Sequence record: OK428535.1
From: Escherichia phage vB_EcoM_Lh1B
Length of the DNA stretch: 64,000 bases
Direction: 5' to 3' (one strand)
A program made the position numbers and the translations under genes. Below the pieces are notes generated by a model. That model was not told the DNA's origin, did not search any database, and saw only the letters and a list, made by a program, of their open reading frames with translations. Positions 14,949 to 61,153 of the stretch are shown piece by piece; the stretch's first letter is position 1, and every line of letters begins with the position of its first letter.

Positions 14949-14953
14949 TTAAC

Positions 14954-14987
14954 GGTCAGACCTTCGGGTCTGACCNCCTTTTATTTA
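14954..14987 (+). terminator. intrinsic terminator
   Basis: GGTCAGACC-TTCG-GGTCTGACC hairpin followed by CCTTTTATTT. Confidence 0.75.
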
Positions 14988-14999
14988 ATTCTTGGGTGT

Positions 15000-15266: not shown

Positions 15267-15326
15267 TTTTTTACAGCAGTAACTAATCATCTGAAAATAC
15301 CATTGACTTTTATAAGGACTATTAAC

Positions 15327-16460: not shown

Positions 16461-16478
16461 TGCGATAAAAAATAAAAG

Positions 16479-16516
16479 CCTACCTACTCCCAAGGGAGTA
16501 GGTAGTTCTTTTTTTC
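16479..16516. terminator. bidirectional intrinsic terminator
   Basis: CCTACCTACTCCC-AAG-GGAGTAGGTAG hairpin flanked by A-run upstream and T-run downstream, between convergent genes. Confidence 0.75.
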
Positions 16517-16517
16517 T

Positions 16518-17141: not shown

Positions 17142-17151
17142 TTAACCCTCC

Positions 17152-27510: not shown

Positions 27511-29004
27511 ATGGCAGGTCCAGCTAAACAAGTCATGGGTGAAGTGATTCGCCCTCGTTTTAACGTATATACCATCATGGACCACGCTCTCGGTAACTAC
27601 GAGCGCGGGGAAGATGGTTTGTACTACCTCAACGGTGGTTTTGCCCACATCATGGGCTTCGCAGGTCGTGGGAATACCTTTAAGTCTACCTTATTGGACT
27701 TCTGTATTTTCATGATTCTGCAACGTTATAATGCAGCCTGGGGATCGAAATACGATACCGAAGTTACGGCAGCATTAAGTCGTCTGGAAACGGGGTACAT
27801 TTCCGCAGCGAAAGCAAACGGATTAGAAGTATCGCCAACAGGCGGCGTGCTGGACCTGATCCACGAAGGTCGTTACAACATGGTTGGCTCGGATATCATG
27901 GCGGGTGAGGAGTATTACTCTGCTTATATCCGTGACGAAGTCGAAAAACGTTTCAAAGAGTATATGGCTGGTAAGGCACGTGAAACACCGTTCCCGGACC
28001 CAATCCGTCGCTCTGCGAAAAAGATTCTCGACCCGTGGTTGTACTCGATTGACTCCCTGTCCGAATGGCACACCTCTTCCCTGGAAGAGAAACACGCCAA
28101 ATCAGAAGTCGGTGATTCTGAACAGAACATCCTGAACGCCCACGATGCGCTGCAGAAATCGAACATGATGAGCCGTTGGCCGTCTGCGTTTGCGCGTGGT
28201 GGTTTCTATATGGGCTTCGTTGCTCAGTTGGCCGACGATGCGGGNAAAGCAATGGCGGCAGGTGGCCGGGGTGGACCGAAGGCGAACGGTAAACTGTTGG
28301 ACGATGCAGGCGATGATCTGAAGTTTGCGGGTATCCCGCGCCGTCAGTTGTCGTTCTTAACTAACTCCCTGCTGGTTGCAACCAAGTCTGGTGAGTTGAA
28401 GCAGGATCAGACTTACAACGCGAAGACCGGTGTAAACGAAGAGAAATACCCGACTGCGCGTTCGAAAGCAATGAATGCTTCGGTGAACGACCTGAAAGAA
28501 ATTGTTTTCACGCAGTACCGTGCGAAGGGTGGTCACACAGGCGTTAAGTTCAAAATGGTCTTCTCGCAGGAGATGGGTCTGCTTTATCACCTCTCTCTGT
28601 GGCATTACCTGAGCGACACACTGAAAGATGAATGGGGCTACAAACGTAGTGGTGCTAACTATACCCTCGATTTGCTACCTGGTACATCTTTCATGCGTAC
28701 CACGATTCGCGACATGTGTGACAGCAACCCGCGTTTGCGCCGTGCGTTGGAAATCACCGCCGCACTAGCGTACATGCAGAATAACTACCACCGACTGGAA
28801 ATGAAGTACCATCTCTCACCGGCGGAGCTTTATAAAGTTATCGACGAAAAGTGGGACTGGAATGAAATTCTGGACAATACAGTGGAATACTGGATGTTCA
28901 AGGATCAGGAAGTCAAAGGTGGTAAGCGTTGCTTAACAGCAATGTCATTACTGGCGATGGCCGTGGATGGTCTGGAACCTAAGTTCTTGACTAAGAAGAA
29001 ATAA
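27511..29004 (+). CDS. hypothetical protein (497 aa)
   Basis: Long ORF followed by terminator; no confident motif. Confidence 0.75.
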   Translation: MAGPAKQVMGEVIRPRFNVYTIMDHALGNYERGEDGLYYLNGGFAHIMGFAGRGNTFKSTLLDFCIFMILQRYNAAWGSKYDTEVTAALSRLETGYISAAKANGLEVSPTGGVLDLIHEGRYNMVGSDIMAGEEYYSAYIRDEVEKRFKEYMAGKARETPFPDPIRRSAKKILDPWLYSIDSLSEWHTSSLEEKHAKSEVGDSEQNILNAHDALQKSNMMSRWPSAFARGGFYMGFVAQLADDAXKAMAAGGRGGPKANGKLLDDAGDDLKFAGIPRRQLSFLTNSLLVATKSGELKQDQTYNAKTGVNEEKYPTARSKAMNASVNDLKEIVFTQYRAKGGHTGVKFKMVFSQEMGLLYHLSLWHYLSDTLKDEWGYKRSGANYTLDLLPGTSFMRTTIRDMCDSNPRLRRALEITAALAYMQNNYHRLEMKYHLSPAELYKVIDEKWDWNEILDNTVEYWMFKDQEVKGGKRCLTAMSLLAMAVDGLEPKFLTKKK

Positions 29005-29049: not shown

Positions 29050-29325
29050 ATGCGTTATCAGAAAGATATTGTAGAGCGTCTGTGTCTGGGTCTCGCTGGT
29101 ATTAGCCAGGAACTTAGCACCGCGTTCCATAACGAGTTCTCAGCACCGCGACATGCACTGTCTGAATTTAGTCATCAGGTAAATGCCCATTACGGCAACC
29201 TGATTAATGATAAACCGAAGGTTGATGCGGTCGGTGTGCCTGAACACAATGAAGATATCCCGTACTGGATTGAAGACCTGGAACGTGTGGTTCTTCCAGT
29301 GCTCCGTGAGAGGATGAAAAAATGA
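29050..29325 (+). CDS. hypothetical protein (91 aa)
   Basis: ORF track; ATGA-type overlap with next gene. Confidence 0.55.
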   Translation: MRYQKDIVERLCLGLAGISQELSTAFHNEFSAPRHALSEFSHQVNAHYGNLINDKPKVDAVGVPEHNEDIPYWIEDLERVVLPVLRERMKK

Positions 29326-29990
29326 GATTAGACCCGGCACGGCGAAAAAAAGCAGAAGCTTATGCTTTACAGTTACTGAACTTAGTTGACCCGACCGGGA
29401 TTAACGCGGAAGCTGCCAAGCGCGCTTTCTCACGAATGTCTGACGAAGAGTTCAATCGTCTGCGCGAAGGGTTGCCTGTTTACAACCCAACTGGTGNCAA
29501 GGTCAAAATTGACCATATGCGCAATATTAAAATTTGCGAAGCGATGGGACTGAACTTGTGTCAGCGCCTGTGGCTCACGGAACCGAAAACCGGTATCCTG
29601 CAGCGTACCCGTTACCCCCATTTAGTCTTCCGCCTGCCTGCACGTCGCCAGACGCAGATGCAAGAGAAGAAAATGGCGGTGGCGAAGAACGATAAAGTCC
29701 GCGATAAACTCTCAGGTCAGGTAGTAGGGCCTTCCAAAGCTTCGGGTGTTTCGTTTCCAGAAGCGTACATCATGTACTCGGATGGACACGACTCAACGCT
29801 CCAGGAGTTCCTGTGGGCGCGTGGTGGTAACGATACGTTACAACGTGCGTTCTATCAATCGCTACGGCAAACCGGTAAAGGTCGCATCAACCTGGAAGGG
29901 GCTGAGCGTACCAGTTCAAAAGCGCCGCGTACATGGTCTTCGTACTTTAAAGCAATGCACATCGGTAACAACTTAGGACGCCCGGAATGA
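29322..29990 (+). CDS. hypothetical protein (222 aa)
   Basis: ORF track; overlapping start/stop chain. Confidence 0.65.
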   Translation: MRLDPARRKKAEAYALQLLNLVDPTGINAEAAKRAFSRMSDEEFNRLREGLPVYNPTGXKVKIDHMRNIKICEAMGLNLCQRLWLTEPKTGILQRTRYPHLVFRLPARRQTQMQEKKMAVAKNDKVRDKLSGQVVGPSKASGVSFPEAYIMYSDGHDSTLQEFLWARGGNDTLQRAFYQSLRQTGKGRINLEGAERTSSKAPRTWSSYFKAMHIGNNLGRPE

Positions 29991-47700: not shown

Positions 47701-50700
47701 TTCCACGCAGCCTTACCTAAAAGACCTACGGGTTTTAACACACCCCATTTCGTGATAGAACCGAGTATATTACCCACAGTTCCCAAGATACTGACGATGG
47801 GGCCGATGATAGGTAAGCCTTTCACCATATCCCACAGACCGCCAGATTTCCCTTTGGAGCCCTGCNCTTTCTCTTTCTTCNCCTTNCNTTTCNCACNCCA
47901 ACNTTTGAAGAAGTTAAAGTAGTCGCGTTTTTCATCACCTTCAGGCGGCTTGTTACGTTTACCGAACTTCGCAAACATGGTACGAATAATACCATCGTCG
48001 CCACCTGCACGGGATACTGATTCGCGCATGGTGTTAAACCACGACATCTCTTGCAAGCCAATCATTCGGTCCAAGCGTTCGAATAACCTTGCACCTGCTG
48101 ACTTGGCGGCATTCTTCCCTTTGTTGATAACCCTCCCTGCTGCATCACGGGCGGTCTCAAGGTCTTCCTTCGCATCGCCGTAGACTTTACGGCCAGAAAG
48201 GCCACCTTTCGCGTTCAAATGGCTGCGATAAAACTCAGCAACATCGTCATCGCGTCCAGCCAACCGACGTTCAACTTCGTAACGTGTAGCAATGTCGTGT
48301 CGTGCTCCACGATATCCATCGAGCATATCCCCAGCCCGGCCTCGGAAACCACTGAACCAACCNCGCAGGCNGTCGCGTCCACGACCAAAGAACGCTTTTG
48401 TTCTTGACCAACGTCCACCAAAACGTTCAGACAATGACGATTTCGCACGATCATACGCCCCGCGTACTGCACGACCGATCGTACTACCGCCACCCCCGAC
48501 GCCCTTCTCCATTTCCTCTGTCCAACTTTCGTCTTCCGGATCTCCCGGTAAACGTTGGTTCAACAGTTTATAGATACGGATAAGGATGTGGTTGGTTTTC
48601 TTGCCGGTTGATGAGAAGAGACTGAAACCACCACCCCCACCATCTTTACGGCCTTTCCACCAACGCGTCAGTGGGTTGTCGGTAANCATGTCTTTCAGAC
48701 GATCGACACCACGTTTCGCAAAACCGAGCACTTTACCCGGTAAGCTCGTTACACGGTTGAACGCTTTCTGGAGACGTGTCTTTTCTTCGCCTTCCGGAAT
48801 CTCGTTCAGCCAGTCCTTAATCTTACCAACGATGCTGCCTGCTTTCGGTGACAGGAAATCCAGGAACCGCTTCGGTAGCTTAGCCACCTTATTAAAGCCT
48901 AAGCCAATCTTACTGGCCAGACCTTGGGTCAGTGCTTGGATTTTCCCGCCTTTATAGTAGCGGAGTTTACCCGCAGCGGCTAAGTCAGCGGCTGCTAATA
49001 CCAGATTACCTGCGGAGTCAACAATATCACTCCCCAGTTTGATGTCGTCCAGCGTTTTCAGCTGAACCATTTTACCATCAATGACCTGATAGTATTCTCC
49101 AGCTTCCAGACGTGCACCTTGCAGAACAACGTTACCGTGGTCATCGTAAACATCGCGGATACCCAGTAGTCCTTTACCGAAGGAACTTACCGCTTCAAAA
49201 CCACCACGGACACTACCACTGATAAGGCCACGCATCCGGGTTAAGAAACCAGGACCTTCGCCACCTCCCATGCCTGCGACTTTACCGCGTGCCCAACCAC
49301 CGAACTGGTTCAGTTTATTCCAGGCACCCTTAACACCACGTTTCGCAAAGCCGCCGATTCCTGCTGCGGTGTCGAACAANACACCGCCCCAACGACGAAT
49401 AAGCCCATCCTCACCGATGATAATACGACGGCGTCTACCGCCACCGCTACCACCACCAGGGCGAGGCGGACCCATTTCTTCATCACCAGAACCAGCACCC
49501 CCTGCTAACGAAGCCAGAAGAACCCCTTCTTCGTCCATACTTCTGACGTGTTCCAGAATTTTCTGGAGGGTGTCACTGTTGTTGTTACCACGAATCGCTT
49601 CGATGATACCGTCAAAGTTATTCCGTGGTGCTTCTTCGCCGCGGTTACGTTGACTCAACAATTCAACAAAGTTAGTCGAGGTTTTACCGTAGAGAACTGC
49701 GGCTAACTGCCGAGGCGACATTCCGCGGCCTTTACCACCGCCACGTAAANCNGGNGGTAACGACGTGTCATCGGCACCACCACTTGCCCCTTGGTTCATT
49801 CGGCGCAGATAGTCGCCTAACGCCGAACCATTTTGCAGCTTACGTTGAATCTCCTGGTCACGAGTCAATGCGCGCCCGCTGCGTGTCTTACCCATCGCCA
49901 AGTCATTAAACAAGGTATAGGGATCGGACAGGTCTTTATCCACGCCGAAGGTGTCACTCTTCGCGTCGTAGTTAAAGATACCCGCATCACGCAACGCTCG
50001 CTCGCCGTAAATATTCACCGCCTCGTCGATAATTGCCTGACGTTGGGTGATAGATGACTGCACTGTGGAGATTTTGCGAGCCAGTTCGTTACTTAATTCG
50101 TTGCTACCACCGAGTAAGCTGTCTGAATGCCCCTGTAACGCTTCCTTAATGCGTTCTGCGGCGTTTCCTGGCATATACCGATGAAGATGCATCGGGTCTT
50201 TCAGAATCGCTTCTACGTCGAATGCGCGGCCCTGCGAGGCACGTGACTCGATATAGTCGGCAAGATGCTGTCGATCCTTCTGCGAGAGCGTTTTGCCACG
50301 GTCAACAAAATCCACAGTGCTGTTAATGGAATTTTGGAGACGCAGGCGCTGCTCATCGTTTGCAACCGCTTTGCGTACACGGTTACCGACCACTTTGCGG
50401 TCTACGAAACCACGACTGGTGATGTCGTATTCCAGATCGGCATGTTCGCCATAGCCACGACGAACAGATTTGTTAATCTCTGCCAGCCAGGCAGGAATAA
50501 CTTCAACCAGGCTAAGATACGCTTTACGGTCAAACTTCGCCGAACGACTTAACGTTTCGCCATTACGCTCATCGAGGAAGGCTTTCTCACGGTTTAACGG
50601 TTGGACAATACCGAGTTCATTCAGTACCCGGAACAAATCCGCCAACGGTCCTTGTGTTTCGCCTGCGATAGCTGAGTTCGAGATAGAGGAAAGATTACCA

Positions 50701-51722
50701 AAGGTGAACGCGCCCTTCTGCAGGCGTTTCATGACCTCTGGATTTTTCTCCATCTCCTCACGAGTCCATTTCTGGAGTTTCTCGATTTGTGGGCCGAGTA
50801 GTTTCTTCGCAAGGAATCCGCTACCCCATGCAGTTGCTTTATCGCGAGCATTTGTTTTGCGACGTTCGGCAGTCAACGAAGAGCTGTCGCTCATGCCGAA
50901 ATCGTCTTCAACACCCATGCCGAGAACAGACTCTAACAAACCACGACCTTCGCCAAATATACCAGAAATTTTCTTCTTGGTATTTTCGCGAATCATGTCC
51001 ATAAACCCGTCAGCATAACGCAANGGGTTCATCCATTCCGCAGCCTGGCGTTTAACGTTTGCCCAACGGACTTCTGAGAAATCTTCCTTCGCGTAGTCTG
51101 GCAGCGCCGTGTTCTTCACGATGGCTTCTAAAGCAGGCGTGTTACGATCGAACTCCGACTGCTTCATCTTCACGATGTCTTGAATGGCGAACAGGGTACG
51201 GTATTGCAATTCGAGTTTCTTACGCTCGATGTTTAAGAATACCCCACGGCTTAACCCGGTTAGCAGGTTAATGTCTTTCGCCATCCCAATCATGGTTTGG
51301 TGCATTGCATCCGCGCGCATCTCTTTGATGCTGTCGCGGAGCTTATCCTCTACCATGCGGTCCTGCAGTTGACGTTGTTCGTCGGCGTCCTTTGGCACGC
51401 CTGAGAAAACGTCGCCCAGTTCACGATCCATCAATGCCTGATTAGGATCGTAATTTTGGTAATCCAACTGGTCAGATTTTGACCACTTGTCGATGCGCTT
51501 AGTAACTGCATCCGGCAAGTATTTCTTCATCGTCGGACCGAGTTGGCGCGCTTGCATCTTCAGCGTGCGCTCGGTCTTCTCAAGCTCCCCTTTCGTATGG
51601 GCGTAAATGTCCTTTGCTGCAGCTGCCGCTGACTGATAACCCTCGTATGCATCAGCTGCCGGCTTAGGCATCCCCTTGAGGATAACTTGGTCGCGTTTCC
51701 CTTCTGGCCAGATAGTTGACAT
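44748..51722 (-). CDS. giant virion-associated protein with C-proximal lytic transglycosylase domain (about 2320 aa from proposed start)
   Basis: Uninterrupted ORF 44748-51905; start proposed at ATG comp. 51720-51722 (AGGAAG SD-like) because the ORF otherwise overlaps the divergent RNAP gene start; GVPPAVALAMAK.ESGFNYTAKNPYASASGLFQFVNG SLT-like motif about 2040 residues in; Gly/Arg-rich low-complexity tracts. Confidence 0.8.
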   Translation of the reverse strand: MSTIWPEGKRDQVILKGMPKPAADAYEGYQSAAAAAKDIYAHTKGELEKTERTLKMQARQLGPTMKKYLPDAVTKRIDKWSKSDQLDYQNYDPNQALMDRELGDVFSGVPKDADEQRQLQDRMVEDKLRDSIKEMRADAMHQTMIGMAKDINLLTGLSRGVFLNIERKKLELQYRTLFAIQDIVKMKQSEFDRNTPALEAIVKNTALPDYAKEDFSEVRWANVKRQAAEWMNXLRYADGFMDMIRENTKKKISGIFGEGRGLLESVLGMGVEDDFGMSDSSSLTAERRKTNARDKATAWGSGFLAKKLLGPQIEKLQKWTREEMEKNPEVMKRLQKGAFTFGNLSSISNSAIAGETQGPLADLFRVLNELGIVQPLNREKAFLDERNGETLSRSAKFDRKAYLSLVEVIPAWLAEINKSVRRGYGEHADLEYDITSRGFVDRKVVGNRVRKAVANDEQRLRLQNSINSTVDFVDRGKTLSQKDRQHLADYIESRASQGRAFDVEAILKDPMHLHRYMPGNAAERIKEALQGHSDSLLGGSNELSNELARKISTVQSSITQRQAIIDEAVNIYGERALRDAGIFNYDAKSDTFGVDKDLSDPYTLFNDLAMGKTRSGRALTRDQEIQRKLQNGSALGDYLRRMNQGASGGADDTSLXXXLRGGGKGRGMSPRQLAAVLYGKTSTNFVELLSQRNRGEEAPRNNFDGIIEAIRGNNNSDTLQKILEHVRSMDEEGVLLASLAGGAGSGDEEMGPPRPGGGSGGGRRRRIIIGEDGLIRRWGGXLFDTAAGIGGFAKRGVKGAWNKLNQFGGWARGKVAGMGGGEGPGFLTRMRGLISGSVRGGFEAVSSFGKGLLGIRDVYDDHGNVVLQGARLEAGEYYQVIDGKMVQLKTLDDIKLGSDIVDSAGNLVLAAADLAAAGKLRYYKGGKIQALTQGLASKIGLGFNKVAKLPKRFLDFLSPKAGSIVGKIKDWLNEIPEGEEKTRLQKAFNRVTSLPGKVLGFAKRGVDRLKDMXTDNPLTRWWKGRKDGGGGGFSLFSSTGKKTNHILIRIYKLLNQRLPGDPEDESWTEEMEKGVGGGGSTIGRAVRGAYDRAKSSLSERFGGRWSRTKAFFGRGRDXLXGWFSGFRGRAGDMLDGYRGARHDIATRYEVERRLAGRDDDVAEFYRSHLNAKGGLSGRKVYGDAKEDLETARDAAGRVINKGKNAAKSAGARLFERLDRMIGLQEMSWFNTMRESVSRAGGDDGIIRTMFAKFGKRNKPPEGDEKRDYFNFFKXWXXKXKXKKEKXQGSKGKSGGLWDMVKGLPIIGPIVSILGTVGNILGSITKWGVLKPVGLLGKAAWNVGKFAVTRLXAPXVXXVGTGASAVVTAVGWPAILIGXXXXXXGYAXYKIATTTYTQYLDKMRLAQYGFRDYDKWSSDDGAKARYLEDALREYVSYAEDGQASLRGLGGKDVQKLAEGFGINVEEKGEMLAFQAFMLQRFIPIYLRWIXALKSMPNSIQLADVGDAKKVSKEDMQTLFNKMKMTKDAKAFSSLTDPRKVNQGFFSKAWDVVTFTPKEFLSGEEVMEVQNEVXXAIKFRMDDKKXRKYGMAPAVEGIKSAGVDEAINKLGQLDNERNKNLAKVEGWEDGTEQVQIQVDWNAVLDQKDMNAMESVRWKTYGFTTIDNATRTLITVFEKNVIKDIDVKTASYKGDWKKAIASMVPDAIGTPKEDRLKRWFFDRFLPVFMTYLVGVKRYLPTADPLNLKLTGGYLYEISLMMSTAYSLKGGIRQSVWEVNINPLGGDANTNPSSIKAELETLKLLSKEADLAVRNMIKAIKNNGKRARWKDRNKNRSSLEVTGEDEEDSNISSGDSLSSDGARASGYIPSGTSGGVPGNLGQVVDAVGGVRNYAAMTTGSSSINLSEVKDGDYKSLAEKYPIEMLGRKGALNVPNIKALITDAANMMGVPPAVALAMAKXESGFNYTAKNPYASASGLFQFVNGXWDGMMKGXSXKXGXPRVNQXXPXXXXILGVQFIRDNIQKAQRDLGGKAXXPAVAYLYHFLGAGGGKKFLEAWKRNPNMAASSAPGITSAILRGNANVFYSNGRIRSVDGVIQELNRRMGAISANEVAAVPSKTKDMVAGLSPNSPTNPAAAMGAPAANDPSLSXADNLPADNANRRDDALTQKGAMAAQDAMATAAGNVGPAAPXPTTGGTGTSDASTTAETVASQAAAEGLSXTDVAKVKAGAEAQVNAAARPIAAPTSDATASTPTLNGDPIDVQQLKVLIQSRDYLKEIRDILKSNPRAANDTRGGSIQQAANVPPPGSAARRQEITQPTPSLNVSRKAS

Positions 51723-51898
51723 CGCCGACTTCCTGGCAACATTCAGGGTACTGAGTATCGGGCTTCGTTTTTTCTCGTCTTTGGGACGGGGNGGTTCNCC
51801 NAAANCNTCCCANTCGTCGANTNTATCTAAATCNATATCATCNAAACCNTCTTTNCCTCTTTTTGCCNTAANNTTTNTTCCAATTNAGGAGNTTAAAA

Positions 51899-53512
51899 AT
51901 GACAAAGCTAAAATGGGTTNACTTTTACTTGTTAAACNNCAACAAGTCCCTGGTGTCGCATTTAAAACCAGTTACAACAACAGACACCTTTCAGGGACTG
52001 ACGAAAAACTTTCACCCTGAAGGACTGTATTCAACCGAAATTTTTGGCCTCACAGGGAGCGAAGCACGAGACTCAACGTTCTCGTACATTGATATCAAAC
52101 TGGATATCATTTCGCCGACCGTTTGTTTGGCATTGTTCCAGCTGAAACAGCTGTACGAAGAAATCTGTTCCGGGAAGCGATTCGCTATCTGGAATGAGAA
52201 AGAAAAAGATTTCGAGCCGGCTCTGCCCAGTGATAAAGGTGCAGACACCGGCTTCAACTTCTTCCTACGCTACTACGAACAACTGACACCGGGACGCAAC
52301 GAATCGATGCGTCGCGACGAGACAGTCGATTTCTTCAATAAGTTCCGTCCGGTCAGTCTCAGCCGCTATGTGCTGGTTCTGCCTGCGGGATTACGTGATT
52401 TGGTCATTCGTCAGGATGGCCGCGACCAAGAAGAAGAGATTGGCGGACTCTACCGTCGTCTGATTTCTCTGGCGCGTGCAATCCCCGACCGCAGTACGCG
52501 AACGGAACTGACTGACCCGGTTCGCTGGAAGCTCCAACAAACCTTTAATGATATCTGGATGTACTTCTTCAACATCCAGGATGGTAAAGGTGGTTTTGCA
52601 CGTCGTAAAGTGACGTCACGTAAGTTAATGAACGGTACGCGTAACGTACTGTCTTCATTCTCAACCGGTTCCAAGGTCATGGGTCGCGAAGATGCGATTC
52701 GTCCAACGGATACCCGTATCGGTTTGTACCAAACCCTGAAGGCATTACTGCCTGTGGCTCAATACCACATCCGTGAACGTTACCTCAGTAACATCCGGGC
52801 AGGGGACGGCAACTTATACGGCGTTAACACCAAAACACTCAAGCGTGAGTTCCTGGAAGTCTCCGGGCGGGTGTATGACCTTTTCACTACCGACGATGGC
52901 ATCGAAACACTCATCAACAGAATGGAAGCGCGCGAGCTTCGACATAAACCGCTGATGATTGATCCGGACCATTACGTGGCATTAATCTACCAGGACAAAC
53001 GCAGCTTCAAAATCTTTTACGATATTGAAGACCTGCCGGAAGGACGTGACCGCAAGCTTGTCCGCGGACTGAGCTTAGCAGAACTCCTCTATTTGTCAGG
53101 TTACGATATTTGGAATGACTACTTCTCGTTCATCACGCGTTATCCGGTTACGGGACGCGGTTCGACTTACTCCTCGACCATAAGATTGGAGACCACCACC
53201 TCTTCCCTCTATTTGCATGAACTGGAAGACGATTGGGNCACGTTAAAAGANAAGGGNGCAATTNGNTTCCCTGACCGTACCGTGAAAACNTTTGTGGAAT
53301 CCATGGCACCACATCCANCCCNATTAGGGGGNTTGGGNGGNGACNACGANGGNGACACCGGCNCANCAAANAGCCCGATGTCAACCGAAGCGCTCGNGGA
53401 AAATCGGAAGTGGGTCAGTTCGAAAAACTACTGGTTTGCAACAGACGGCAGTTTCAAAATCAATCCGGTTAACAACGTGATTAAAAGAACGACTGCTGCG
53501 CTGTTGAAATGA
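51899..53512 (+). CDS. RNA polymerase beta-prime-like subunit, N-terminal fragment
   Basis: FSYIDIKLDIISPTV and VLVLPAGLRDLVIRQDGRD....IGGLYRRLISL align with E. coli RpoC HIELASPTAHIW and [35 protein letters not shown]; partly resolved GGD-x-(D/E)-GD-TG at 53342-53362 compatible with the DxDGD catalytic loop. Confidence 0.75.
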   Translation: MTKLKWVXFYLLNXNKSLVSHLKPVTTTDTFQGLTKNFHPEGLYSTEIFGLTGSEARDSTFSYIDIKLDIISPTVCLALFQLKQLYEEICSGKRFAIWNEKEKDFEPALPSDKGADTGFNFFLRYYEQLTPGRNESMRRDETVDFFNKFRPVSLSRYVLVLPAGLRDLVIRQDGRDQEEEIGGLYRRLISLARAIPDRSTRTELTDPVRWKLQQTFNDIWMYFFNIQDGKGGFARRKVTSRKLMNGTRNVLSSFSTGSKVMGREDAIRPTDTRIGLYQTLKALLPVAQYHIRERYLSNIRAGDGNLYGVNTKTLKREFLEVSGRVYDLFTTDDGIETLINRMEARELRHKPLMIDPDHYVALIYQDKRSFKIFYDIEDLPEGRDRKLVRGLSLAELLYLSGYDIWNDYFSFITRYPVTGRGSTYSSTIRLETTTSSLYLHELEDDWXTLKXKXAIXFPDRTVKXFVESMAPHPXXLGXLXXDXXXDTGXXXSPMSTEALXENRKWVSSKNYWFATDGSFKINPVNNVIKRTTAALLK

Positions 53513-53530
53513 TACCCATAAGGCACATGT

Positions 53531-56500
53531 ATGATTTTTCTGAAACAGTTTAACCAGCGCTTTACCGTGCGCAAGACCGATGAGTTCGGTCGTCCGCGTA
53601 TTATCCCGCTGGAGAAGCTCCAGCTCCCACGTGGTTCTATCTACCACACCATCGATTTAGACCAGGTGGTTTTAGCACCACCGTTAACTACACCGTNTTT
53701 TGNCCNGGTGGAAAAACCGGCGATGATTCGCCACCACTTCCAGCTGCCTGAAGACGGCATTATTGGCCACCCGCGTAAGAAACCGGTTGTTGGCCAAGAA
53801 CGTCAAATCTTCCAGTACCATCGTAACAATCGTCGTATTCGTCGCATGATTGAAGACGGCGTGGTACGTTCCGATCCGAAAGTGCTGCTCATCGAAAACT
53901 ACACCCCGATGCTGCCGCATTATTTCTACCCTGATACTCTGATGTCCTGGTACGAACGTCTGCACAACATTCAGCTGCTGATAACTAACCAGATGAAAAC
54001 TGACTCACGTGAGTACATGCGTCAGAACTACTACATCATCGAACTGGGTAACGTACTGCCTTCTTTCGATCGTTTTAAAATGACGTATAACGATCGTGTT
54101 AAAACCAAACTGGAGCGCTTTAAAGACTTTAACCTGCTGTGGTTACTGGAGTTGTTCGGTTGGGTGTACGGCGATCAGCAAGCAACACTGTTTGACGGTA
54201 TGGACATGAACCAGCTGTCACGTGTGAACTTTATCTTCACACACAACGGTGGTTTTACATCCATGAACATGGGTGTAATTGAAAGAATGCGTAAGTCTGC
54301 CGGTGGTCGTTTGACTGACGTGCAGATGGGCAGAATGTTCTACCGTACACTGACTACTGTGATGACCACACCGCCGTCTACCGACTACGAAGATGACGAG
54401 TTCGTTACACCGGAAGGGGATGAACGCGTACATCTGGGAGAGGACGACGATGCTGTTGAAACCGTTGCCAGTAAACCGGAAGAAAGCCTCGATATCGTCG
54501 ACGATGAAGCAACACAAAGCGACAACGTTGACGATACATTGAACGATCATGAGTTCGATGAGAAAGAAGATCTGGTCATCGAAGCGCCGAAAGAAGATGT
54601 CAAACCAACCACCATCGTCGTAGAACGCACCATCCCACACGATGCTGTGATTAAACAAGAAGTTGAGCGCCTGGCNGAAGCGGGCCGCGTCACCGCCAAA
54701 GCGTATCAGTTCCTGAACGAATCTTCTAAACGTTTCGTAAACTTACCCAACCCGTACAATCCTAAAGAGACGTACGGCGAAGGTCTGACCATCGATCCGA
54801 AGAAACTCGAAGTTAAAGCCGAGCCTAAGAAGATTGAACGCTTAGTTACGGATGAAGCCTGGGCGGAAAATACCACCGACCAAATCATTCGTCAGTACAA
54901 CCAGGAAATCTTCCCGAAAGATATTCTGGGGGCAGTAGCGTCATCTCAGCGTCTCGGTTTGGCGATTCACAATCACACTGTTNAGAAAGAGATTTCCGTT
55001 ACCGGGAATATCGAACACCACACGTTGCGTATTCAGCCGATTGGCGGAGAACCAACCACGGTACGTTTCTCAATTCCTGCATTAACCGAAGACGGTACTT
55101 GGGTTGCGAATGGTGTGGAATATACAATGCGTCGTCAGCGTGTTGATCTTCCCATCCGTAAAGTGTCCCACGATACTGTAGCGTTAACCACTGCCTACGG
55201 GAAGAACTTTGTCCGTCGCAGTGATAAAGTCGTCAATGATTACGGACGTTGGCTCACTAACGCGATTATTACTCGCGCGGTCGATCCAAAGAACACCGAA
55301 ATCACTGATGCAAAACTGGCGAATGTGTTCGATCCGCTGTCTAAACTGCCGCGTCAGTACACCGAGGTGGCACGTCGTGTAGCAGCATTCAACGCAATTG
55401 GGTACCAATGGAACTTTGACATTAAACAGAAAGCGGCATTCTTTAACGAAGGGCAACTGGCAGATGCGGACCGTGTCGAGCTGGTACCTGTGGCGAAGAA
55501 ACCGCGGAGTCATGTCATCGTCGGTATGGATAAAAACTCCCAGCTTTATCGAGTGGATAAGGATAAGACCGAACCACTGGGTACACTCGCCGAGGTCTTT
55601 GGCGTGGACACCTCTAAGGCTCCACGTGAAATGACCGAACTGTCACTGATGGGCAAATCAATCTCGCTGGGCTTTGTGTTTGCGTACTATCTCGGATTAA
55701 CCGGGATGTTGAAACACTTTGGTATCAGTTACGAGGTTCTCTCTGTCGGACAACGTATCGATAAAGGTCAGTTCGACTCCATTATTCGTCTCCAGGATGC
55801 GAAAATTGCAATTGTCTGCGAGAACGATCAACAGAGGATGATTGTCAACGGCTTAGACCGTTACATTAAACACTTTACCACGTATACCGAGTCGGAAGTT
55901 GACCGGGAAGACATTTACCTGAACCTGTTACGTGATGCAGATGGGCTAACACCACGCTACATCAAAGAGCTGAAACTGATGCGGACCGCATTTGTTGACG
56001 ACATGCACGCGCGTATCCTCAGGAAAATGGGCGAGCCGGNAACCTTTATCGGCTTACTGGAGCGTTCTAACGAACTGCTGCAGACGGACCACACGTTACC
56101 GGAAATTAACGGTGACGAAATGATGTTCATCGGGAACCAACGTATTTCGTATCACATCTACACCGCGATGGTGCGGGCGATGCGTAACTACAACAACGCG
56201 CCTAACTCGAATCGTAAGTTTGAGTTGACGCAGGACATGGTCTGGGGTGCAATTAACTCCGACCCGTCTGTTCTACTGGCTCCTGGTGCAAACCCGGTAC
56301 AGAACATCAAAGAAAAAGATGTTGTTACCATGGGCGGTACAGGTGGTCGTAACCGCAAGACCATGGTCTACAGTACCCGTGAATTCCAACCGAGCGACCT
56401 GGGGATTGTCTCCGGTAACACGGTCGATAACGGCGATGTAGGTATCACCGCCTTTGCAACAAACAATCCGCGTTACGACACCGTGGACGGCACGACCTTT

Positions 56501-57736
56501 AAAAAGGACCTCGATAAACTGAAGCCAGGTGAGGCACTGTCATTTATTGATGGCTTGGTGCCGGATACCCTGATGGACGATGCTAAGCGTCAGAACTTCG
56601 TTGGGATTCAATTCGGTTCTGCGACCAGTTGTGTTGGCGCAACCACCACACCGTATCGTACCGAGCAAGAAAAGTTCGTGGCACACCGTACTTCTGTGAA
56701 GCACGCACGCGTAATCGATAAACCTGGCAAGATTGTGGAGGTTCTTAACGACCACGTTAAAATCAAATACGACGACGGAGAGGAAGAAGCTTTCCCACTG
56801 GGCCGTTGGTTCGGTCCGCACGAAGGGACTTACTACCCACACACCCTGGTAACGAAATGGAAGCGCGGAGATAAACTCCCTGCCGGTGCCGTTATCACGT
56901 ACAACGAACAACACTTTGAACCAGACATCTACGATCCAACGCAGGTCAGTTTTAAAAACGGGATACTGGCAACTGTCGCTTTGATTGAAGGGGAAGAAGT
57001 AATTGAGGACTCCAACGCCATTAGTGAGCGGTTCGCTGCTAAGGCTGAAGCCGATGTTACCAAACTCAAAGAAGTCACAATGACGTTTACCCAGAACCTG
57101 TTGGAGATGGTAAAAGAAGGGGACCACGTAGACGTGGATTCAATTCTATGCACCTTCACCGACAACCTGACCGGCGATATGAGCGGGTTCAGTAAAGAAG
57201 CAGCGGAAACGCTGCGTGAGTTAAGCTCCTTTGCACCACGCTCTGGTGTTCGTGGGTTTATCGACAAAATCGAAGTGGTTTACCACGGCGAGGTGGAAGA
57301 TATGACCCCGTCTTTGGCGGAGATGGTTCGTAAATACGACCGTATACGTCGGAAGACTGCGCTGGCTCTCAAACGTGACGAGCCGAAGGATGGTCGAGTC
57401 AACGGTGATTTTCGTGTTGAGGGGGTGCCGTTAGCGTACAATAGCCTGTGTGTCCGATTCTACATCACACACCGGGTAGAGATGGCAGCAGCGGATAAGA
57501 TGGTTATTGCTAACCAGCTGAAAACGACGGTTCAGGAAGTGATGTATGGAACCAACAAAACGGAAGACGGGCAGGAACTCGACATTATCTTTGGTCGTGA
57601 TTCCGTCGACGCACGTATCGTAGGTTCTATCATGCGCATCGGAACCACCAACGCTGTCGGGTATCGTGGTGGGGAGAATATCGGACGCATCTTAGATGGT
57701 GAAGACGTCCCAGCCTTGCCGGCTAAAATCAACTAA
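53531..57736 (+). CDS. RNA polymerase beta-like subunit, N-terminal and middle part
   Basis: [38 protein letters not shown] aligns with RpoB [64 protein letters not shown] aligns with MPWNGYNFEDSILVSERV; C-terminal RpoB region absent. Confidence 0.75.
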   Translation: [1401 protein letters not shown]

Positions 57737-57783: not shown

Positions 57784-58077
57784 ATGGGAATTTTAGATAC
57801 GCTCAAGCAGCAGCATGGGATTCCGGTGGGTCGTAATAGCACGAATCCGGAAACGGAAGGTTATTCCCCACAGCAACGCATGAACTTTGTTGTTCTGGGC
57901 AATGCGGTTGAATTGGCCACCGAAATTATTCACGGACTGCTGAAGGGCAGCAATGGCCTGTCTGACCGCATGGGCGATCAGCGTTTGCTGAAACGAGACA
58001 TCGCTGATATGGTGGGTGCGCGTATTACTGGTCGCATCCAGGATTCTATCAGCACCAAAAACGGGGGTCAGGCATGA
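57784..58077 (+). CDS. hypothetical protein (97 aa)
   Basis: ORF track; overlapping stop-start with next gene. Confidence 0.5.
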   Translation: MGILDTLKQQHGIPVGRNSTNPETEGYSPQQRMNFVVLGNAVELATEIIHGLLKGSNGLSDRMGDQRLLKRDIADMVGARITGRIQDSISTKNGGQA

Positions 58078-59549
58078 TCAACTTATATTCACTTAATGCT
58101 GTCACCAACGCAATGAAACTGGCGAAACAACACCAGGTTCGTTTGGAAGCTGACGTTGACAGTCCTGTTGGTCTACTGACAAAAGCGACTACGCAGCAGA
58201 GCGTTTTCGATACGCAGATAACTGACGAAGAGTTCTTCCAGTCTCTGCCGGATATCACTGCACTGAAAACACCACAATCTGGCACGGGCGAAGCGTCTGT
58301 AATCGCAGATACTGCAGCGGGTCCAGAAACGCTGAACGTCGAAGACCACGAACCGACACTGTTCGAACTGAAACGTATGGCTATCCAACGTTGTCAGGGT
58401 ATGCTTGACTTTGCCCGTAACGTTATTCAGCCGTTTGTTCAACTGGTTATCCAAAACAACCAGGGTATTGAAAACCNGGCNGTTNGNGAANAATGGGNAC
58501 TTGTGCCTGCAGGTATGGACCCGGCGTTGAACTCCCCGGTGGTACAGGCATTAATTGATTCGGTAGAAAACCCGCTGGGCAATGGTACTACGCACCCTGC
58601 AGTTAAAGCCAACGTCCCTGCTGATATCGAACTGCCAGAAACCGGCAGCAAAGCTTACGACGATCTGGTTAAAGAACTGTTGAATGCGCTGGGTTGGAAT
58701 ATCAACGAAGCCGTTCGCAACATGCTCGAAGGGAACATGCTCTCTCCGGTAAGCGACCAGGCACCACACAACCTGAAACGCAACATTCTGTTTATGCTNC
58801 TTTCTGGCTNCTACCTGGAAATGCCGTGGAAAGACTCTGGTCTGAATAGCGGGCAGTGGAAAGCACAGATGCTGCCGTTGCATTACAGCTATATCGGTTG
58901 GGTTTACGCCTACACCCAGAACATCGTTACCCGCATCAAGACCGGTAACATTGTCTTCGGATACGACAACGTTGAGAAGAAAGTGTATATCTGTCAGGAA
59001 GTGATGGACGACTATCTGGAAAAAGGCGGTAGCGTTGAAGCGTTACTGGGCGCTATCTACCAGCTGGACGAAGGTGACACCAATGTCTCCACGCGTGTAG
59101 CTTCACTGTTGGAAAAACAGAAAGACTACATCGCTGCCTGGGGCCACCGTTCTGCGATTCAGCGTGCTAAGCTCGACAGCAGTTGGGTAACACGCAATCG
59201 CCAGTCACTGAAACAAGCGTTTAACGTGGCTATCGATGCGACCGATCCTGAACTGTTCTGGCGTGGACAGGACGGTCAGGTAGCAACGCCGGAGTTCGTT
59301 AAGAAATCAACGGCAAGCTTCATCGATTCGTTCTTCACCACCGACACCACAGACATCACTGAGTTCGTTATCAAGGTCTCCGCGACTGAGGTCTTCGGTG
59401 AATACGAACTGTCCAAGCTGATGCTGGATATTCATCGTGGTATGATTGCTAACCGTCAACCTGACGAGGTGGCAACCGACTGGATGATTAACTACGTCCT
59501 GGATTGGATTTGTGGCGGTGTGGTTATTTCTGTACCGAGCAAAGTTTAA
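58074..59549 (+). CDS. hypothetical protein (491 aa), possibly virion-associated
   Basis: Long ORF in the RNAP/structural neighbourhood. Confidence 0.7.
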   Translation: MINLYSLNAVTNAMKLAKQHQVRLEADVDSPVGLLTKATTQQSVFDTQITDEEFFQSLPDITALKTPQSGTGEASVIADTAAGPETLNVEDHEPTLFELKRMAIQRCQGMLDFARNVIQPFVQLVIQNNQGIENXXVXEXWXLVPAGMDPALNSPVVQALIDSVENPLGNGTTHPAVKANVPADIELPETGSKAYDDLVKELLNALGWNINEAVRNMLEGNMLSPVSDQAPHNLKRNILFMXLSGXYLEMPWKDSGLNSGQWKAQMLPLHYSYIGWVYAYTQNIVTRIKTGNIVFGYDNVEKKVYICQEVMDDYLEKGGSVEALLGAIYQLDEGDTNVSTRVASLLEKQKDYIAAWGHRSAIQRAKLDSSWVTRNRQSLKQAFNVAIDATDPELFWRGQDGQVATPEFVKKSTASFIDSFFTTDTTDITEFVIKVSATEVFGEYELSKLMLDIHRGMIANRQPDEVATDWMINYVLDWICGGVVISVPSKV

Positions 59550-59564
59550 TAAAGAGAGGTGGTC

Positions 59565-60287
59565 ATGAGCGCCATTGAAACAGCACGTCGTGACGCGACG
59601 AAAATTCATGCAGATTTAGTGGACCAAGGCACGGCCACCATCACCAAAGGGGGATGTTACATTTACATCCCTGTTGGCTTCGTGGCTAAAGAGCTGGCGG
59701 TAATTTCTTCGCAAGTCGAAATCGTCGGCATTTTCGCTATCTCCACTGACCGCAAAACCTACGGGGTATCGAACGTCACGACGTTCATTGAAATTACCCC
59801 GTCGGCGTTTGAGGAAATTGACGTTCAGGGTGTGCCGTATTACGAGTTCCGTTTTGACCCCGGCACGGTGGTGTTCCCCAACCGAATGCTGCAAGTGCTA
59901 TCCTCGCCAGTCTACAACATCGCTTCGTACATCTACGACTTCGGAAACCGGCCTTTCTGGTACACCGCAGTAGATGACGCTGAGCTATTGTCTGACACTA
60001 AGACGTGGAACGGCTTTACGGTCTTTAACGACCAGATCACCGCTGACTGTTATGCTGCCCACACACAGCGTAAGGTTGGCGACCCGCGGACGTATTTCCG
60101 CTACACCCTGAAAAAAGACAGCGATTTGATGAATCGGGTGCAGTTTATTCCGCTGCGTTCAGGTTCATTGAACAAAACTTCCCGGTTGGCCAAGATTGCA
60201 GATGTGGAACTGAAACAGGGTATCCGTTCTGCACTCCAGGTCGATCCGGTACGTGCAGAGCCACTCGAGGATTTGTATATGAGGTAA
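59565..60287 (+). CDS. hypothetical protein (240 aa)
   Basis: ATG 59565 with GAGAGG upstream. Confidence 0.65.
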   Translation: MSAIETARRDATKIHADLVDQGTATITKGGCYIYIPVGFVAKELAVISSQVEIVGIFAISTDRKTYGVSNVTTFIEITPSAFEEIDVQGVPYYEFRFDPGTVVFPNRMLQVLSSPVYNIASYIYDFGNRPFWYTAVDDAELLSDTKTWNGFTVFNDQITADCYAAHTQRKVGDPRTYFRYTLKKDSDLMNRVQFIPLRSGSLNKTSRLAKIADVELKQGIRSALQVDPVRAEPLEDLYMR

Positions 60288-60349: not shown

Positions 60350-61153
60350 ATGGAAAACTTGTCACTACGTTATAACTGCGTGGCACTCGCTGGGGTCAAT
60401 AAAGGGGCAACGCTAAAGAAAGATGCGGACGGATATTACTACGTCCTGTTAGGTGCATTGAATATTTTCAACTCTGAGAATATTTACTACGCCTATAACG
60501 AGTCAAAACATGTCTTCGAGCGCTCTAACGTTTTCATGCGTAAAGTTTTGGCGGGGAATCTCTTCGGTGAAGAAGACCATCCGCAATACGAACAAGGCAT
60601 GAGCGAAGCCCAGTGGATCGAACGTAACGAATGGATCGAAACGCGTAACGTGTGTATGCACATTCGCGAAGTAGAAGTGAAGCCGACCGACCAGATGTGT
60701 AACGGTCTGCCGGTGATGGAAATTTGGGGTTGGATTAAACCTAACCGTGAACGTGGTCCGCTTCTGGCGGAAGCACTAGAGAACCCACATCAGAACGTGT
60801 GTTTCTCACTGCGTGCTATCGTTCGTGAAGGTCGTCTGGGTACGACAATCGTACGCCGCATCGATAAACTGGTCACCTTTGACTGGGTTATTGAAGATGG
60901 TCTGCAAATCTGTAACAAATACTCTGCGATTCAACGCGGTAGTAAAGTGGCACAGGAATCCACTCGCACTTACGTCGACCGTCCTATTAGTCGTCAGGTG
61001 CTGGAAGACATCCTGTACAATCCGACAACGACCAGCGCTGTTGCCACTGAGTCCCGTCGTGGCGCTCTCCAGCAACTCGCGCAGGAATACCTGCAGCTGG
61101 CTCCGAAAGTGTCCAATCTGCGGGTAATGGGCATGGGTGTAAGGAGCTGGTAA
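60350..61153 (+). CDS. hypothetical protein (267 aa)
   Basis: ORF track. Confidence 0.7.
   Translation: MENLSLRYNCVALAGVNKGATLKKDADGYYYVLLGALNIFNSENIYYAYNESKHVFERSNVFMRKVLAGNLFGEEDHPQYEQGMSEAQWIERNEWIETRNVCMHIREVEVKPTDQMCNGLPVMEIWGWIKPNRERGPLLAEALENPHQNVCFSLRAIVREGRLGTTIVRRIDKLVTFDWVIEDGLQICNKYSAIQRGSKVAQESTRTYVDRPISRQVLEDILYNPTTTSAVATESRRGALQQLAQEYLQLAPKVSNLRVMGMGVRSW

What the first reader, a model, noticed from the sequence alone, without database searches (positions are those of the whole stretch)
51899..57736. Adjacent genes for split, highly divergent RNA polymerase beta-prime and beta subunits
Two consecutive proteins align by eye to conserved RpoC and RpoB blocks: VLVLPAGLRDLV...IGGLYRRLI versus [13 protein letters not shown]...LNDLYRRVI, and [31 protein letters not shown] versus [31 protein letters not shown]. 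Each covers only part of the bacterial subunit. Split multisubunit RNAPs of this kind are, from established knowledge, the hallmark of phiKZ-like nucleus-forming jumbo phages, which transcribe independently of host RNAP. The beta-prime fragment carries a partly n-masked G-G-D-x-(D/E)-G-D-T-G stretch at 53342-53362 where the catalytic DxDGD loop is expected. This sets the biological context for the whole window.
Basis: partly seen in the sequence, partly recalled or inferred. Interest (0 to 1): 0.6.

Follow-up and report, generated by a model that had tools for sequence, protein, structure and literature searches.

The report
Jumbo-phage virion RNA polymerase subunit genes

Summary
The window is an SPN3US-like Salmonella jumbo phage (Seoulvirus): 98.8% nucleotide identity to the SPFM phages and 97.5% to SPN3US.

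- **ORF 51899-53512 (537 aa)** is the ortholog of SPN3US gp240, the virion RNA polymerase (vRNAP) beta-prime N-terminal subunit.
- **ORF 53531-57736 (1401 aa)** is the ortholog of gp241, the vRNAP beta N-terminal subunit.

Pfam, NCBIfam and single-sequence PDB searches find nothing, so "highly divergent" is accurate. Family profiles and AlphaFold models do reach cellular RNAP:
- The gp240 family hits AR9 nvRNAP beta-prime (E 2.7e-12; Foldseek 1.5e-13).
- The gp241 family hits Thermus beta (E 4e-11; Foldseek 4.5e-27).

The masked loop reads GGDYDGD in unmasked near-identical relatives, which is a valid DxDGD triad. The beta active-site motifs are invariant across the family.

Two further vRNAP pieces lie in the same window. 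The beta C-terminal piece (gp218 ortholog) is at 29322-29990. The proposed beta-prime C-terminal piece (gp244 ortholog) is at 59565-60287; its beta-prime homology could not be reproduced here.

Published amber-mutant and virion proteomics work on SPN3US already established all of this. Novelty: already known. Interest is low.

The parts
51899..53512 (+). vRNAP beta-prime N-terminal subunit (ortholog of SPN3US gp240 and phiKZ gp180), 537 aa. It corresponds to E. coli beta-prime up to about residue 510-520 and ends about 50 residues after the catalytic loop.
   Evidence: PHROG 2986, E 7e-226. 100% coverage of SPN3US-like phages. Family profile vs PDB: AR9 nvRNAP beta-prime 7s01_d E 2.7e-12, E. 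coli beta-prime E 1.6e-5. hhalign vs RpoC E 6e-6. AF2 model pLDDT 79 with Foldseek 7s01_d E 1.5e-13, and all 50 listed matches of 469 at E<=1e-3 are RNAP entries, nearly all beta-prime or gamma chains. 33% identity to phiKZ gp180.
53342..53356 (+). Catalytic Mg-binding loop D-x-D-G-D (residues 482-486), partly N-masked in the window.
   Evidence: Window codons are gac nac gan ggn gac. SPN3US and P0001 read DYDGD. Family consensus is GADFDGD, with D482 invariant and D484, G485 and D486 at least 90% conserved. It aligns with the E. coli beta-prime 447-507 region that holds NADFDGD.
53531..57736 (+). vRNAP beta N-terminal (major) subunit (ortholog of SPN3US gp241 and phiKZ gp178), 1401 aa.
   Evidence: PHROG 3148, E 0. 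Family profile vs PDB: Thermus beta 1iw7_C E 4e-11, with collinear weaker segments. hhalign vs RpoB 515-1107, E 1.6e-7. AF2 model of residues 441-1401 has pLDDT 85 and pTM 0.80. Foldseek: 8w8o_C E 4.5e-27, TM about 0.5 over about 1050-1100 columns, and all 50 listed matches of 440 at E<=1e-3 are RNAP beta chains. 29% identity over the full length to phiKZ gp178.
53531..54850 (+). N-terminal extension of the beta subunit (about residues 1-440), including an acidic low-complexity linker at about residues 283-345. No homolog outside the phage vRNAP beta family. The literature proposes it as a head-targeting region.
   Evidence: No Pfam, NCBIfam or PDB hit. It is conserved across the family and in phiKZ gp178, where the alignment starts at residue 4. 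Acidic stretch printed. Targeting hypothesis: PMC5105663.
56306..57526 (+). Beta active-site region with conserved motifs: GGTGGRNR (fork-loop-2 equivalent, residues 935-942), DDAKR (1016-1020), EDS (1159-1161), DK...Q.K (1322-1331).
   Evidence: Invariant or near-invariant columns G936, G939, R940, D1016, R1020, E1159, D1160, K1323, Q1329, K1331. hhalign pairs them with RpoB [15 protein letters not shown], NFEDS and GDKMAGRHGNKG. Sequences printed.
29322..29990 (+). vRNAP beta C-terminal subunit (ortholog of SPN3US gp218), 222 aa.
   Evidence: PHROG 3233 'RNA polymerase beta subunit', E 1e-93. Same position as the SPN3US CDS annotated RNAP beta subunit. hhalign vs RpoB is weak (prob 7.9%, E 0.0044) but falls at RpoB 1160-1309, directly after the end of the gp241 match, and pairs FPEAY..TLQEFL with FGEMEV..TLQEML. 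The PDB profile search found nothing. Assignment and essentiality: PMC5105663, PMC5694885.
59565..60287 (+). Ortholog of SPN3US gp244 and phiKZ gp176: fifth vRNAP subunit, proposed beta-prime C-terminal piece (240 aa from the ATG at 59565; the listed ORF starts at a GTG at 59559).
   Evidence: PHROG 2926, E 1e-94. 31% identity to phiKZ gp176, E 1e-33. 459 representatives at E<=1e-3, of which the listed 150 are nearly all about 240 aa. Beta-prime homology was NOT reproduced here: profile vs PDB found no RNAP and hhalign vs RpoC gave prob 0.1%. The subunit role rests on SPN3US genetics and proteomics plus an HHpred E of 0.05 (PMC5105663, PMC5694885).

Best explanation
The two ORFs encode the beta-prime N-terminal subunit (537 aa, carrying the DYDGD Mg-binding loop) and the beta N-terminal or major subunit (1401 aa, carrying the beta active-site motifs plus a phage-specific roughly 440-residue N-terminal extension). 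Both belong to the virion-packaged multisubunit RNA polymerase (vRNAP) of an SPN3US-like Salmonella jumbo phage.

Three further polypeptides complete the enzyme: beta-C (in this window at 29322-29990), beta-prime-M (gp42 ortholog, outside the window), and the gp244-like subunit (59565-60287). Together they rebuild a bacterial-type two-barrel catalytic core without alpha, omega or sigma homologs.

The complex is made late in infection and assembles before it enters the prohead. It is ejected with the DNA and transcribes early phage genes independently of host RNAP.

- Shown here: homology, fold, active-site conservation, orthology and synteny with phiKZ head proteins.
- Taken from the literature on SPN3US and phiKZ: virion location, essentiality, co-dependent packaging and the early-transcription role.
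- Inferred: that this particular phage behaves identically.
For: Identity of the phage: 98.8% to SPFM phages and 97.5% to SPN3US over all 5838 nt. The annotation matches.

Beta-prime:
- Family profile hits AR9 nvRNAP beta-prime (E 2.7e-12), plastid and cyanobacterial beta-prime/gamma (E about 1e-8 to 1e-5) and E. coli beta-prime (E 1.6e-5), including the catalytic region.
- hhalign vs RpoC gives E 6e-6.
- Foldseek lists only RNAP entries among its 50 best matches, nearly all beta-prime or gamma chains.
- The loop reads DYDGD in unmasked relatives, and the family consensus is GADFDGD.

Beta:
- Family profile hits Thermus beta at E 4e-11, with four collinear segments.
- hhalign vs RpoB 515-1107 gives E 1.6e-7.
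- Foldseek gives E 4.5e-27 and TM about 0.5.
- Active-site residues are invariant.

vRNAP rather than nvRNAP:
- The proteins are orthologous to phiKZ gp180 and gp178, both annotated as structural head proteins.
- The gene order is the same: lysin | beta-prime-N | beta-N | ... | gp176-like | prohead protease.
- No paralogs occur elsewhere in the window.

Literature:
- gp240, gp241, gp218, gp42 and gp244 were detected in SPN3US heads.
- An amber mutation in any one of genes 241, 218 or 244 removes all five proteins from particles.
- Genes 241, 218 and 244 are essential (PMC5105663; PMC5694885).
- vRNAP performs early transcription in the EPI vesicle (PMC13282480; 10.1101/2023.09.20.558163).
Against: No biochemical activity has been shown for this enzyme here, and none is cited for SPN3US vRNAP.

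The catalytic codons are partly masked in the window itself, so DYDGD is inferred from relatives with 97.5-98.8% nucleotide identity. The window codons are compatible but allow E at the second acidic position.

The AF2 model has low confidence exactly at the loop (residues 478-488). TM-scores for the beta-prime fragment are low (about 0.3) because the isolated subunit's domains are not arranged as they are in the complex.

The beta-C assignment is only weakly supported by my own comparison. The beta-prime-C assignment of gp244 is not supported at all by my sequence tests.
Confidence: 0.95

Rival explanations
1. They are subunits of the phage's second, non-virion RNA polymerase (nvRNAP). That enzyme is made after infection and works inside the phage nucleus on middle and late genes.
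For: The best solved-structure match of the beta-prime fragment is an nvRNAP subunit, AR9 7s01_d. However, no vRNAP chain appeared among the PDB matches, so no virion enzyme was available for comparison.
Against: Full-length orthology (29-33% identity) and conserved gene order link them to phiKZ gp180 and gp178, which are annotated head proteins. The SPN3US orthologs were found in purified heads by mass spectrometry and are required for packaging of the complex (PMC5105663, PMC5694885). The genes sit in a head-morphogenesis cluster next to the prohead protease.
Confidence: 0.02
2. They are RNAP-derived proteins that have lost catalysis and now serve only as internal head or ejection proteins.
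For: They are extremely divergent: no Pfam or NCBIfam hit for any family member. They are packaged among many ejection proteins. The long non-RNAP N-terminal extension could serve a structural role.
Against: The metal-binding Asp triad and the beta active-site residues (EDS, DK..K, DD..R, GxGG..R) are invariant or nearly so across families that have diverged to 25-40% identity. That pattern is expected only under selection for catalysis. The literature shows that phiKZ-type early transcription is rifampicin-resistant and attributes it to the injected vRNAP.
Confidence: 0.03

Closest known systems
Salmonella phage SPN3US gp240 (vRNAP beta-prime N) and gp241 (vRNAP beta N)
   Same: 97.5% nucleotide identity across both genes, identical lengths (537 and 1401 aa) and identical neighbours. 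This is the same gene pair in a sister isolate; the SPFM phages are closer still, at 98.8%.
   Different: Only point substitutions and the N-masking of this window. The start codon is ATG here and GTG in SPN3US. The literature lists gp240 as 519 aa, so the exact start is not settled.
Pseudomonas phage phiKZ gp180 and gp178 (virion RNAP beta-prime N and beta N)
   Same: Orthologs at 33% and 29% identity over the full length, including the N-terminal extension of beta. The gene order is the same, from the tail lysin to the prohead protease.
   Different: In phiKZ the beta-prime-N gene is interrupted inside the catalytic motif (GAD | FDGD) by a group I intron that carries the ORF gp179. The window's gene is continuous, and no Rfam family matches 44-64 kb.
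Bacillus phage AR9 non-virion RNAP (PDB 7S00/7S01) and phiKZ nvRNAP
   Same: Split beta/beta-prime jumbo-phage RNAP. AR9 beta-prime-N is the best sequence-profile and fold match to ORF1.
   Different: It is the paralogous enzyme: non-virion, four beta/beta-prime pieces plus a specificity subunit, about 14% identity. It is not packaged.
Cyanobacterial and plastid split beta-prime (gamma/RpoC1 plus RpoC2)
   Same: A naturally split beta-prime whose N-terminal polypeptide contains the catalytic loop. It is among the top fold matches (8syi_D, E 1e-10).
   Different: The cellular split lies further downstream (gamma is about 620 aa). The phage fragment ends about 50 residues after DxDGD, and the phage beta-prime is cut into three pieces. 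The phage protein has only two Cys, fewer than the four Cys of the bacterial beta-prime N-terminal zinc site (established knowledge), so that site is probably absent; this was not tested on an alignment.
Bacterial RpoB/RpoC core enzyme
   Same: Same fold and same active-site chemistry.
   Different: About 12% identity. No alpha, omega or sigma homologs are known. The gene order is reversed (beta-prime-N before beta-N). Beta has a roughly 440-residue N-terminal addition.

Membership tests
Multisubunit RNAP beta-prime (RpoC) superfamily | Significant profile and fold similarity to the N-terminal half of beta-prime | tested here: met
   Profile vs PDB E 2.7e-12 to 1.6e-5. hhalign vs RpoC E 6e-6. 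Foldseek E 1.5e-13, with beta-prime or gamma chains as nearly all of the 50 listed matches.
Multisubunit RNAP beta-prime (RpoC) superfamily | Catalytic (N)ADFDGD / DxDGD metal-binding loop | tested here: met
   Window codons are compatible. Unmasked relatives with 97.5-98.8% nucleotide identity read GGDYDGD. Family consensus is GADFDGD, with the Asp residues invariant or at least 90% conserved. The window's own bases remain partly unknown.
Multisubunit RNAP beta (RpoB) superfamily | Significant profile and fold similarity to beta | tested here: met
   Profile vs PDB E 4e-11. hhalign E 1.6e-7 over 433 columns. Foldseek E 4.5e-27, TM about 0.5.
Multisubunit RNAP beta (RpoB) superfamily | Conserved active-site motifs (fork loop 2 GxGG..R, DDxxR, xEDS, GDK....K) | tested here: met
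   Invariant columns in the 29-sequence family alignment, paired with the RpoB motifs by hhalign. Sequences printed.
Pfam/NCBIfam RpoB and RpoC domain families | Reaches the curated HMM thresholds | tested here: not met
   No hit for either protein in Pfam or NCBIfam, nor in Pfam for any of the 29 gp241-family members. The proteins lie outside the curated cellular models, which is why 'highly divergent' is accurate.
phiKZ-type virion RNAP (vRNAP) | Orthology and synteny with the virion-enzyme genes of phiKZ (gp180, gp178, gp176 next to prohead protease gp175) | tested here: met
   BLASTP E 5e-77, E 0 and E 1e-33. The gene order is the same.
phiKZ-type virion RNAP (vRNAP) | Proteins physically present in the phage head and ejected with the DNA | not testable with these tools
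   Shown by mass spectrometry for SPN3US (PMC5105663, PMC5694885). Ejection is inferred in those papers.
phiKZ-type virion RNAP (vRNAP) | Five-polypeptide split covering all of beta and beta-prime | tested here: inconclusive
   Beta-C ortholog found at 29322-29990: strong PHROG hit and weak but correctly placed hhalign. gp244 ortholog found at 59565-60287, but its beta-prime homology was not reproduced. Beta-prime-M (gp42) lies outside the window and was not examined.
phiKZ-type virion RNAP (vRNAP) | Transcribes early genes independently of host RNAP | not testable with these tools
   Literature on phiKZ and Goslar.
Chimalliviridae (nucleus-forming phages) | Encodes the nuclear shell protein chimallin (ChmA) | not tested
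   I did not search for chmA in the window. SPN3US is named as a Chimalliviridae member in 10.1101/2023.09.20.558163. Multisubunit RNAPs alone do not prove nucleus formation.

The most novel reading that the evidence does not exclude
The gp244-like 240-residue protein at 59565-60287 may not be the C-terminal piece of beta-prime. It could instead be a phage-specific accessory subunit of the virion polymerase, for example one that stands in for alpha, omega or sigma or acts in packaging. Likewise, the roughly 440-residue N-terminal extension of the beta subunit may be a new fold that directs the assembled enzyme into the prohead or through the tail. A 136-sequence family profile shows no similarity to beta-prime. 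The published link rests on an HHpred E of 0.05 plus co-packaging genetics.
Probability: 0.25. Interest if true: 0.4.

Novelty: already known. Interest (0 to 1): 0.1.

Why it matters
It fixes the identity of the window: an SPN3US-like, phiKZ-related jumbo phage. It also names the enzyme that starts the infection without host RNA polymerase. That is useful for annotating the rest of the window, which is a head-morphogenesis and ejection-protein region.

It adds nothing beyond the published SPN3US and phiKZ work. The open questions about this enzyme are its structure, how five pieces are packaged and pass through the tail, what recognises early promoters, and whether gp244 is truly beta-prime-C. 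None of these is advanced by this finding alone.

Tried and rejected
- **Curated HMM libraries:** single-sequence Pfam, NCBIfam and Pfam on all 29 gp241-family members found no RNAP domains.
- **Single-sequence PDB search:** phmmer of either protein found nothing relevant.
- **gp218 (beta-C):** the family profile found no RNAP hit in the PDB. hhalign vs RpoB was weak (prob 7.9%) though correctly placed.
- **gp244 (proposed beta-prime-C):** the family profile (136 sequences) vs the PDB and hhalign vs RpoC gave no support for beta-prime homology.
- **Structure prediction:** The N-terminal extension was therefore never modelled.
- **Fusion (Rosetta-stone) evidence:** the 1898-aa gp241 homolog only carries insertions, and the 692-aa gp240 homolog has an unexplained roughly 160-aa C-terminal tail. 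No fusion to the beta-C or gp244 families was seen.
- **Paralogs in the window:** a search for nvRNAP pieces with the four family profiles found none.
- **Rejected readings:** nvRNAP identity, inactive structural relic and chance similarity (see the rival explanations).
Full report
**What is there.** The interval holds two same-strand ORFs: 51899-53512 (537 aa) and 53531-57736 (1401 aa), 18 nt apart. ORF1 starts at an ATG with AGGAG 8 nt upstream. It lies 29 nt from the divergent start of a 2372-2385-aa gene on the other strand. The window carries 315 N's. Of the 27 inside the two genes, 18 fall in 53238-53397 around the predicted catalytic loop.

**Which genome.** Megablast of the 5838 nt against the phage collection gives 100% coverage. 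Identity is 98.8% to ten Salmonella SPFM phages and 97.5% to Salmonella phage SPN3US (Seoulvirus). More distant hits are in Erwinia jumbo phages. In SPN3US the two genes are annotated 'RNA polymerase beta subunit'. They sit between a giant tail-associated protein and a head-gene block ending in the prohead protease. PHROGs assigns ORF1 to phrog_2986 (E 7e-226) and ORF2 to phrog_3148 (E 0), both labelled RNAP beta subunit.

**How divergent.** Curated cellular models do not see these proteins:
- Pfam finds nothing.
- NCBIfam finds nothing.
- Pfam finds nothing on any of the 29 members of the ORF2 family.
- phmmer against all PDB sequences finds nothing.

So 'highly divergent' is accurate, and the by-eye alignments needed an independent test.

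**Test of the beta-prime claim (ORF1).**
- A 34-sequence alignment of homologs (39-90% identity; homologs) was searched as a profile against the PDB.
- It hits the AR9 non-virion RNAP beta-prime N-terminal subunit (7s01_d, E 2.7e-12).
- It then hits plastid and cyanobacterial beta-prime/gamma (E about 1e-8 to 1e-5) and dozens of bacterial beta-prime chains (E about 1e-5).
- Profile positions 470-529 align to E. coli beta-prime 447-507, the region that holds NADFDGD.
- hhalign against E. coli RpoC pairs residues 140-253 with RpoC 218-357.
- An AlphaFold2 model (mean pLDDT 79) gives 469 Foldseek matches at E<=1e-3 in the PDB. All 50 listed are RNAP entries, nearly all beta-prime or gamma chains, led by 7s01_d (1.5e-13) and cyanobacterial gamma (1e-10).
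- TM-scores are low (about 0.3), as expected for an isolated multi-domain subunit.

**The masked loop.** Window codons 53336-53362 are ggn ggn gac nac gan ggn gac acc ggc. The SPN3US ortholog reads LGGLGGDYDGDTGSAN. The unmasked representative of the closest cluster (P0001, 74 member sequences) reads GGDYDGDTGSANS. Across the family the consensus is GADFDGD; D482 is invariant, and D484, G485 and D486 are at least 90% conserved. The only residual uncertainty is that the window's own middle acidic codon (gan) could encode Glu.

**Test of the beta claim (ORF2).**
- A 29-sequence family profile (homologs) hits Thermus beta at E 4e-11 (profile 983-1110 aligned to beta 532-655).
- Weaker but collinear segments align at 505-527 (beta 117-139), 906-971 (beta 396-462) and 1295-1351 (beta 822-880).
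- hhalign against E. coli RpoB aligns residues 917-1363 with RpoB 515-1107 over 433 columns (E 1.6e-7, prob 94%).
- Invariant family columns coincide with beta active-site elements: G936, G939, R940 (fork loop 2); D1016, R1020 (HDDANR); E1159, D1160 (NFEDS); K1323, Q1329, K1331 (GDK...NKG).
- Foldseek returns 440 matches at E<=1e-3, and all 50 listed are RNAP beta chains. The best is 8w8o_C at 4.5e-27, with TM about 0.5 over about 1050-1100 columns.

ORF2 thus covers beta from its N-terminus to about E. coli residue 1107-1145. It also carries a roughly 440-residue N-terminal extension, with an acidic linker at about residues 283-345, that has no detectable relative outside the family.

**Virion versus non-virion enzyme.** phiKZ-related phages have two such polymerases. 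ORF1 and ORF2 are full-length orthologs of phiKZ gp180 (33% identity, E 5e-77) and gp178 (29% identity, E 0), both annotated structural head proteins. The gene order is conserved: tail lysin (divergent) | beta-prime-N | beta-N | small ORF | about 490-520-aa ORF | gp176-like | prohead protease.

The literature on SPN3US settles the rest:
- gp240 (beta-prime-N), gp241 (beta-N), gp218 (beta-C), gp42 (beta-prime-M) and gp244 (proposed beta-prime-C) are head proteins.
- An amber mutation in any one of genes 241, 218 or 244 removes all five proteins from particles.
- Genes 241, 218 and 244 are essential.
- gp241 is not proteolytically processed (PMC5105663; PMC5694885).
- Reviews and recent work place the vRNAP in the early-infection vesicle, transcribing early genes. 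They describe it as at least five polypeptides with no alpha, omega or sigma homologs (PMC7598289; PMC13282480; 10.1101/2023.09.20.558163).

**The missing fragments.** Two of them are in this window.
- The gp218 ortholog is at 29322-29990 (222 aa; phrog_3233 'RNAP beta subunit', E 1e-93).
  - Its family profile finds nothing in the PDB.
  - hhalign against RpoB is weak (prob 7.9%, E 0.0044).
  - That alignment still lands at RpoB 1160-1309, just after the end of the ORF2 match, and pairs FPEAY...TLQEFL with FGEMEV...TLQEML.
- The gp244 ortholog is at 59565-60287 (phrog_2926; 31% identity to phiKZ gp176).
  - It belongs to a large family: 459 representatives at E<=1e-3, of which the listed 150 are nearly all about 240 aa.
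  - A 136-sequence profile shows no similarity to any RNAP chain in the PDB or to E. coli RpoC (prob 0.1%).
  - I could not reproduce the beta-prime-C homology. Its subunit status rests on the published genetics.
- The four family profiles hit only their own genes in a six-frame scan of the window. The beta-prime-M piece and the whole nvRNAP therefore lie elsewhere.

**Mechanism.**
- Shown here: ORF1 and ORF2 are the beta-prime-N and beta-N parts of a two-barrel RNAP with an intact active site.
- From the literature: they assemble with three other polypeptides before entering the prohead, are packaged, and are required for viable particles. Related vRNAPs travel with the injected DNA and carry out rifampicin-insensitive early transcription.
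- Inferred: this isolate behaves like SPN3US, and the N-terminal extension of beta serves in head targeting. The latter is a published hypothesis and remains untested.

**Verdict.** The feature is already known in a phage 97.5% identical at the nucleotide level. Interest is low. The remaining open points are the gp244 assignment and the role of the beta N-terminal extension, and they concern the enzyme family rather than this window.

Noticed in passing
L005 (phiKZ NC_004629 172000-200000): 14343-17259, minus strand: In phiKZ the ortholog of ORF1 (gp180) is annotated as ending '...LAPLGAD*', inside the catalytic motif. Downstream lie the ORF gp179 and a group I intron (Rfam RF00028, 92 bits, E 6e-24, at 14397-14718). 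After that, the reading frame resumes with 'FDGDTVSFNAVYSEEAIAE...'. The phiKZ beta-prime-N gene is therefore split by an intron exactly in the Mg-binding loop, whereas the window's gene is continuous.
   Followed up: partly
window 51792-51939 and 53238-53397: The N-masked bases are not spread evenly. There are 21 N's around the divergent gene starts and 18 around the catalytic loop, many at third codon positions, while most of the 4.2-kb beta gene has only 6. The cause is unknown; it could be deliberate masking or consensus ambiguity.
   Followed up: no
window 44748-51869, minus strand: A giant ORF (about 2372 aa from the likely start at 51869) is divergently transcribed from ORF1 with only 29 nt between the start codons. 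It is annotated 'tail fiber protein' in SPN3US. It occupies the same position next to the beta-prime-N gene as phiKZ gp181, which is annotated there as a tail-associated endolysin.
   Followed up: partly
window 57784-58077, 58074-59549 and about 60350-61153: Between the polymerase genes and the gp244 ortholog lie a 97-aa ORF (phrog_8223) and a 491-aa ORF (phrog_3841, by position the gp243 ortholog). The literature describes SPN3US gp243 as essential for loading ejection proteins. The prohead protease gp245 ortholog follows, its window coordinates estimated by offset from the SPN3US annotation. Together they form a conserved head-assembly block shared with phiKZ gp175-gp178.
   Followed up: partly
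P0091 (692 aa) and P0165 (1898 aa), metagenomic homologs: One gp240 homolog carries an unexplained roughly 160-aa C-terminal tail beyond the beta-prime-N region. One gp241 homolog is about 500 aa longer through internal insertions. Neither is a fusion to the beta-C or gp244 families.
   Followed up: partly
P0100, P0101, P0107, P0157, P0159, P0161, P0196-P0199, P0202 (SPFM phage records): Several deposited SPFM phage proteins match these genes with very high bit scores, yet BLASTP coverage is only 3-35% and their lengths are odd. This suggests frameshifted or mis-called genes in those GenBank records.
   Followed up: no
window 27511-29004 (+): A 497-aa ORF lies upstream of the beta-C gene, separated from it by about 300 nt that hold a small ORF in SPN3US. 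It has a Walker-A-like GRGNTFKS motif and is annotated hypothetical in SPN3US.
   Followed up: no
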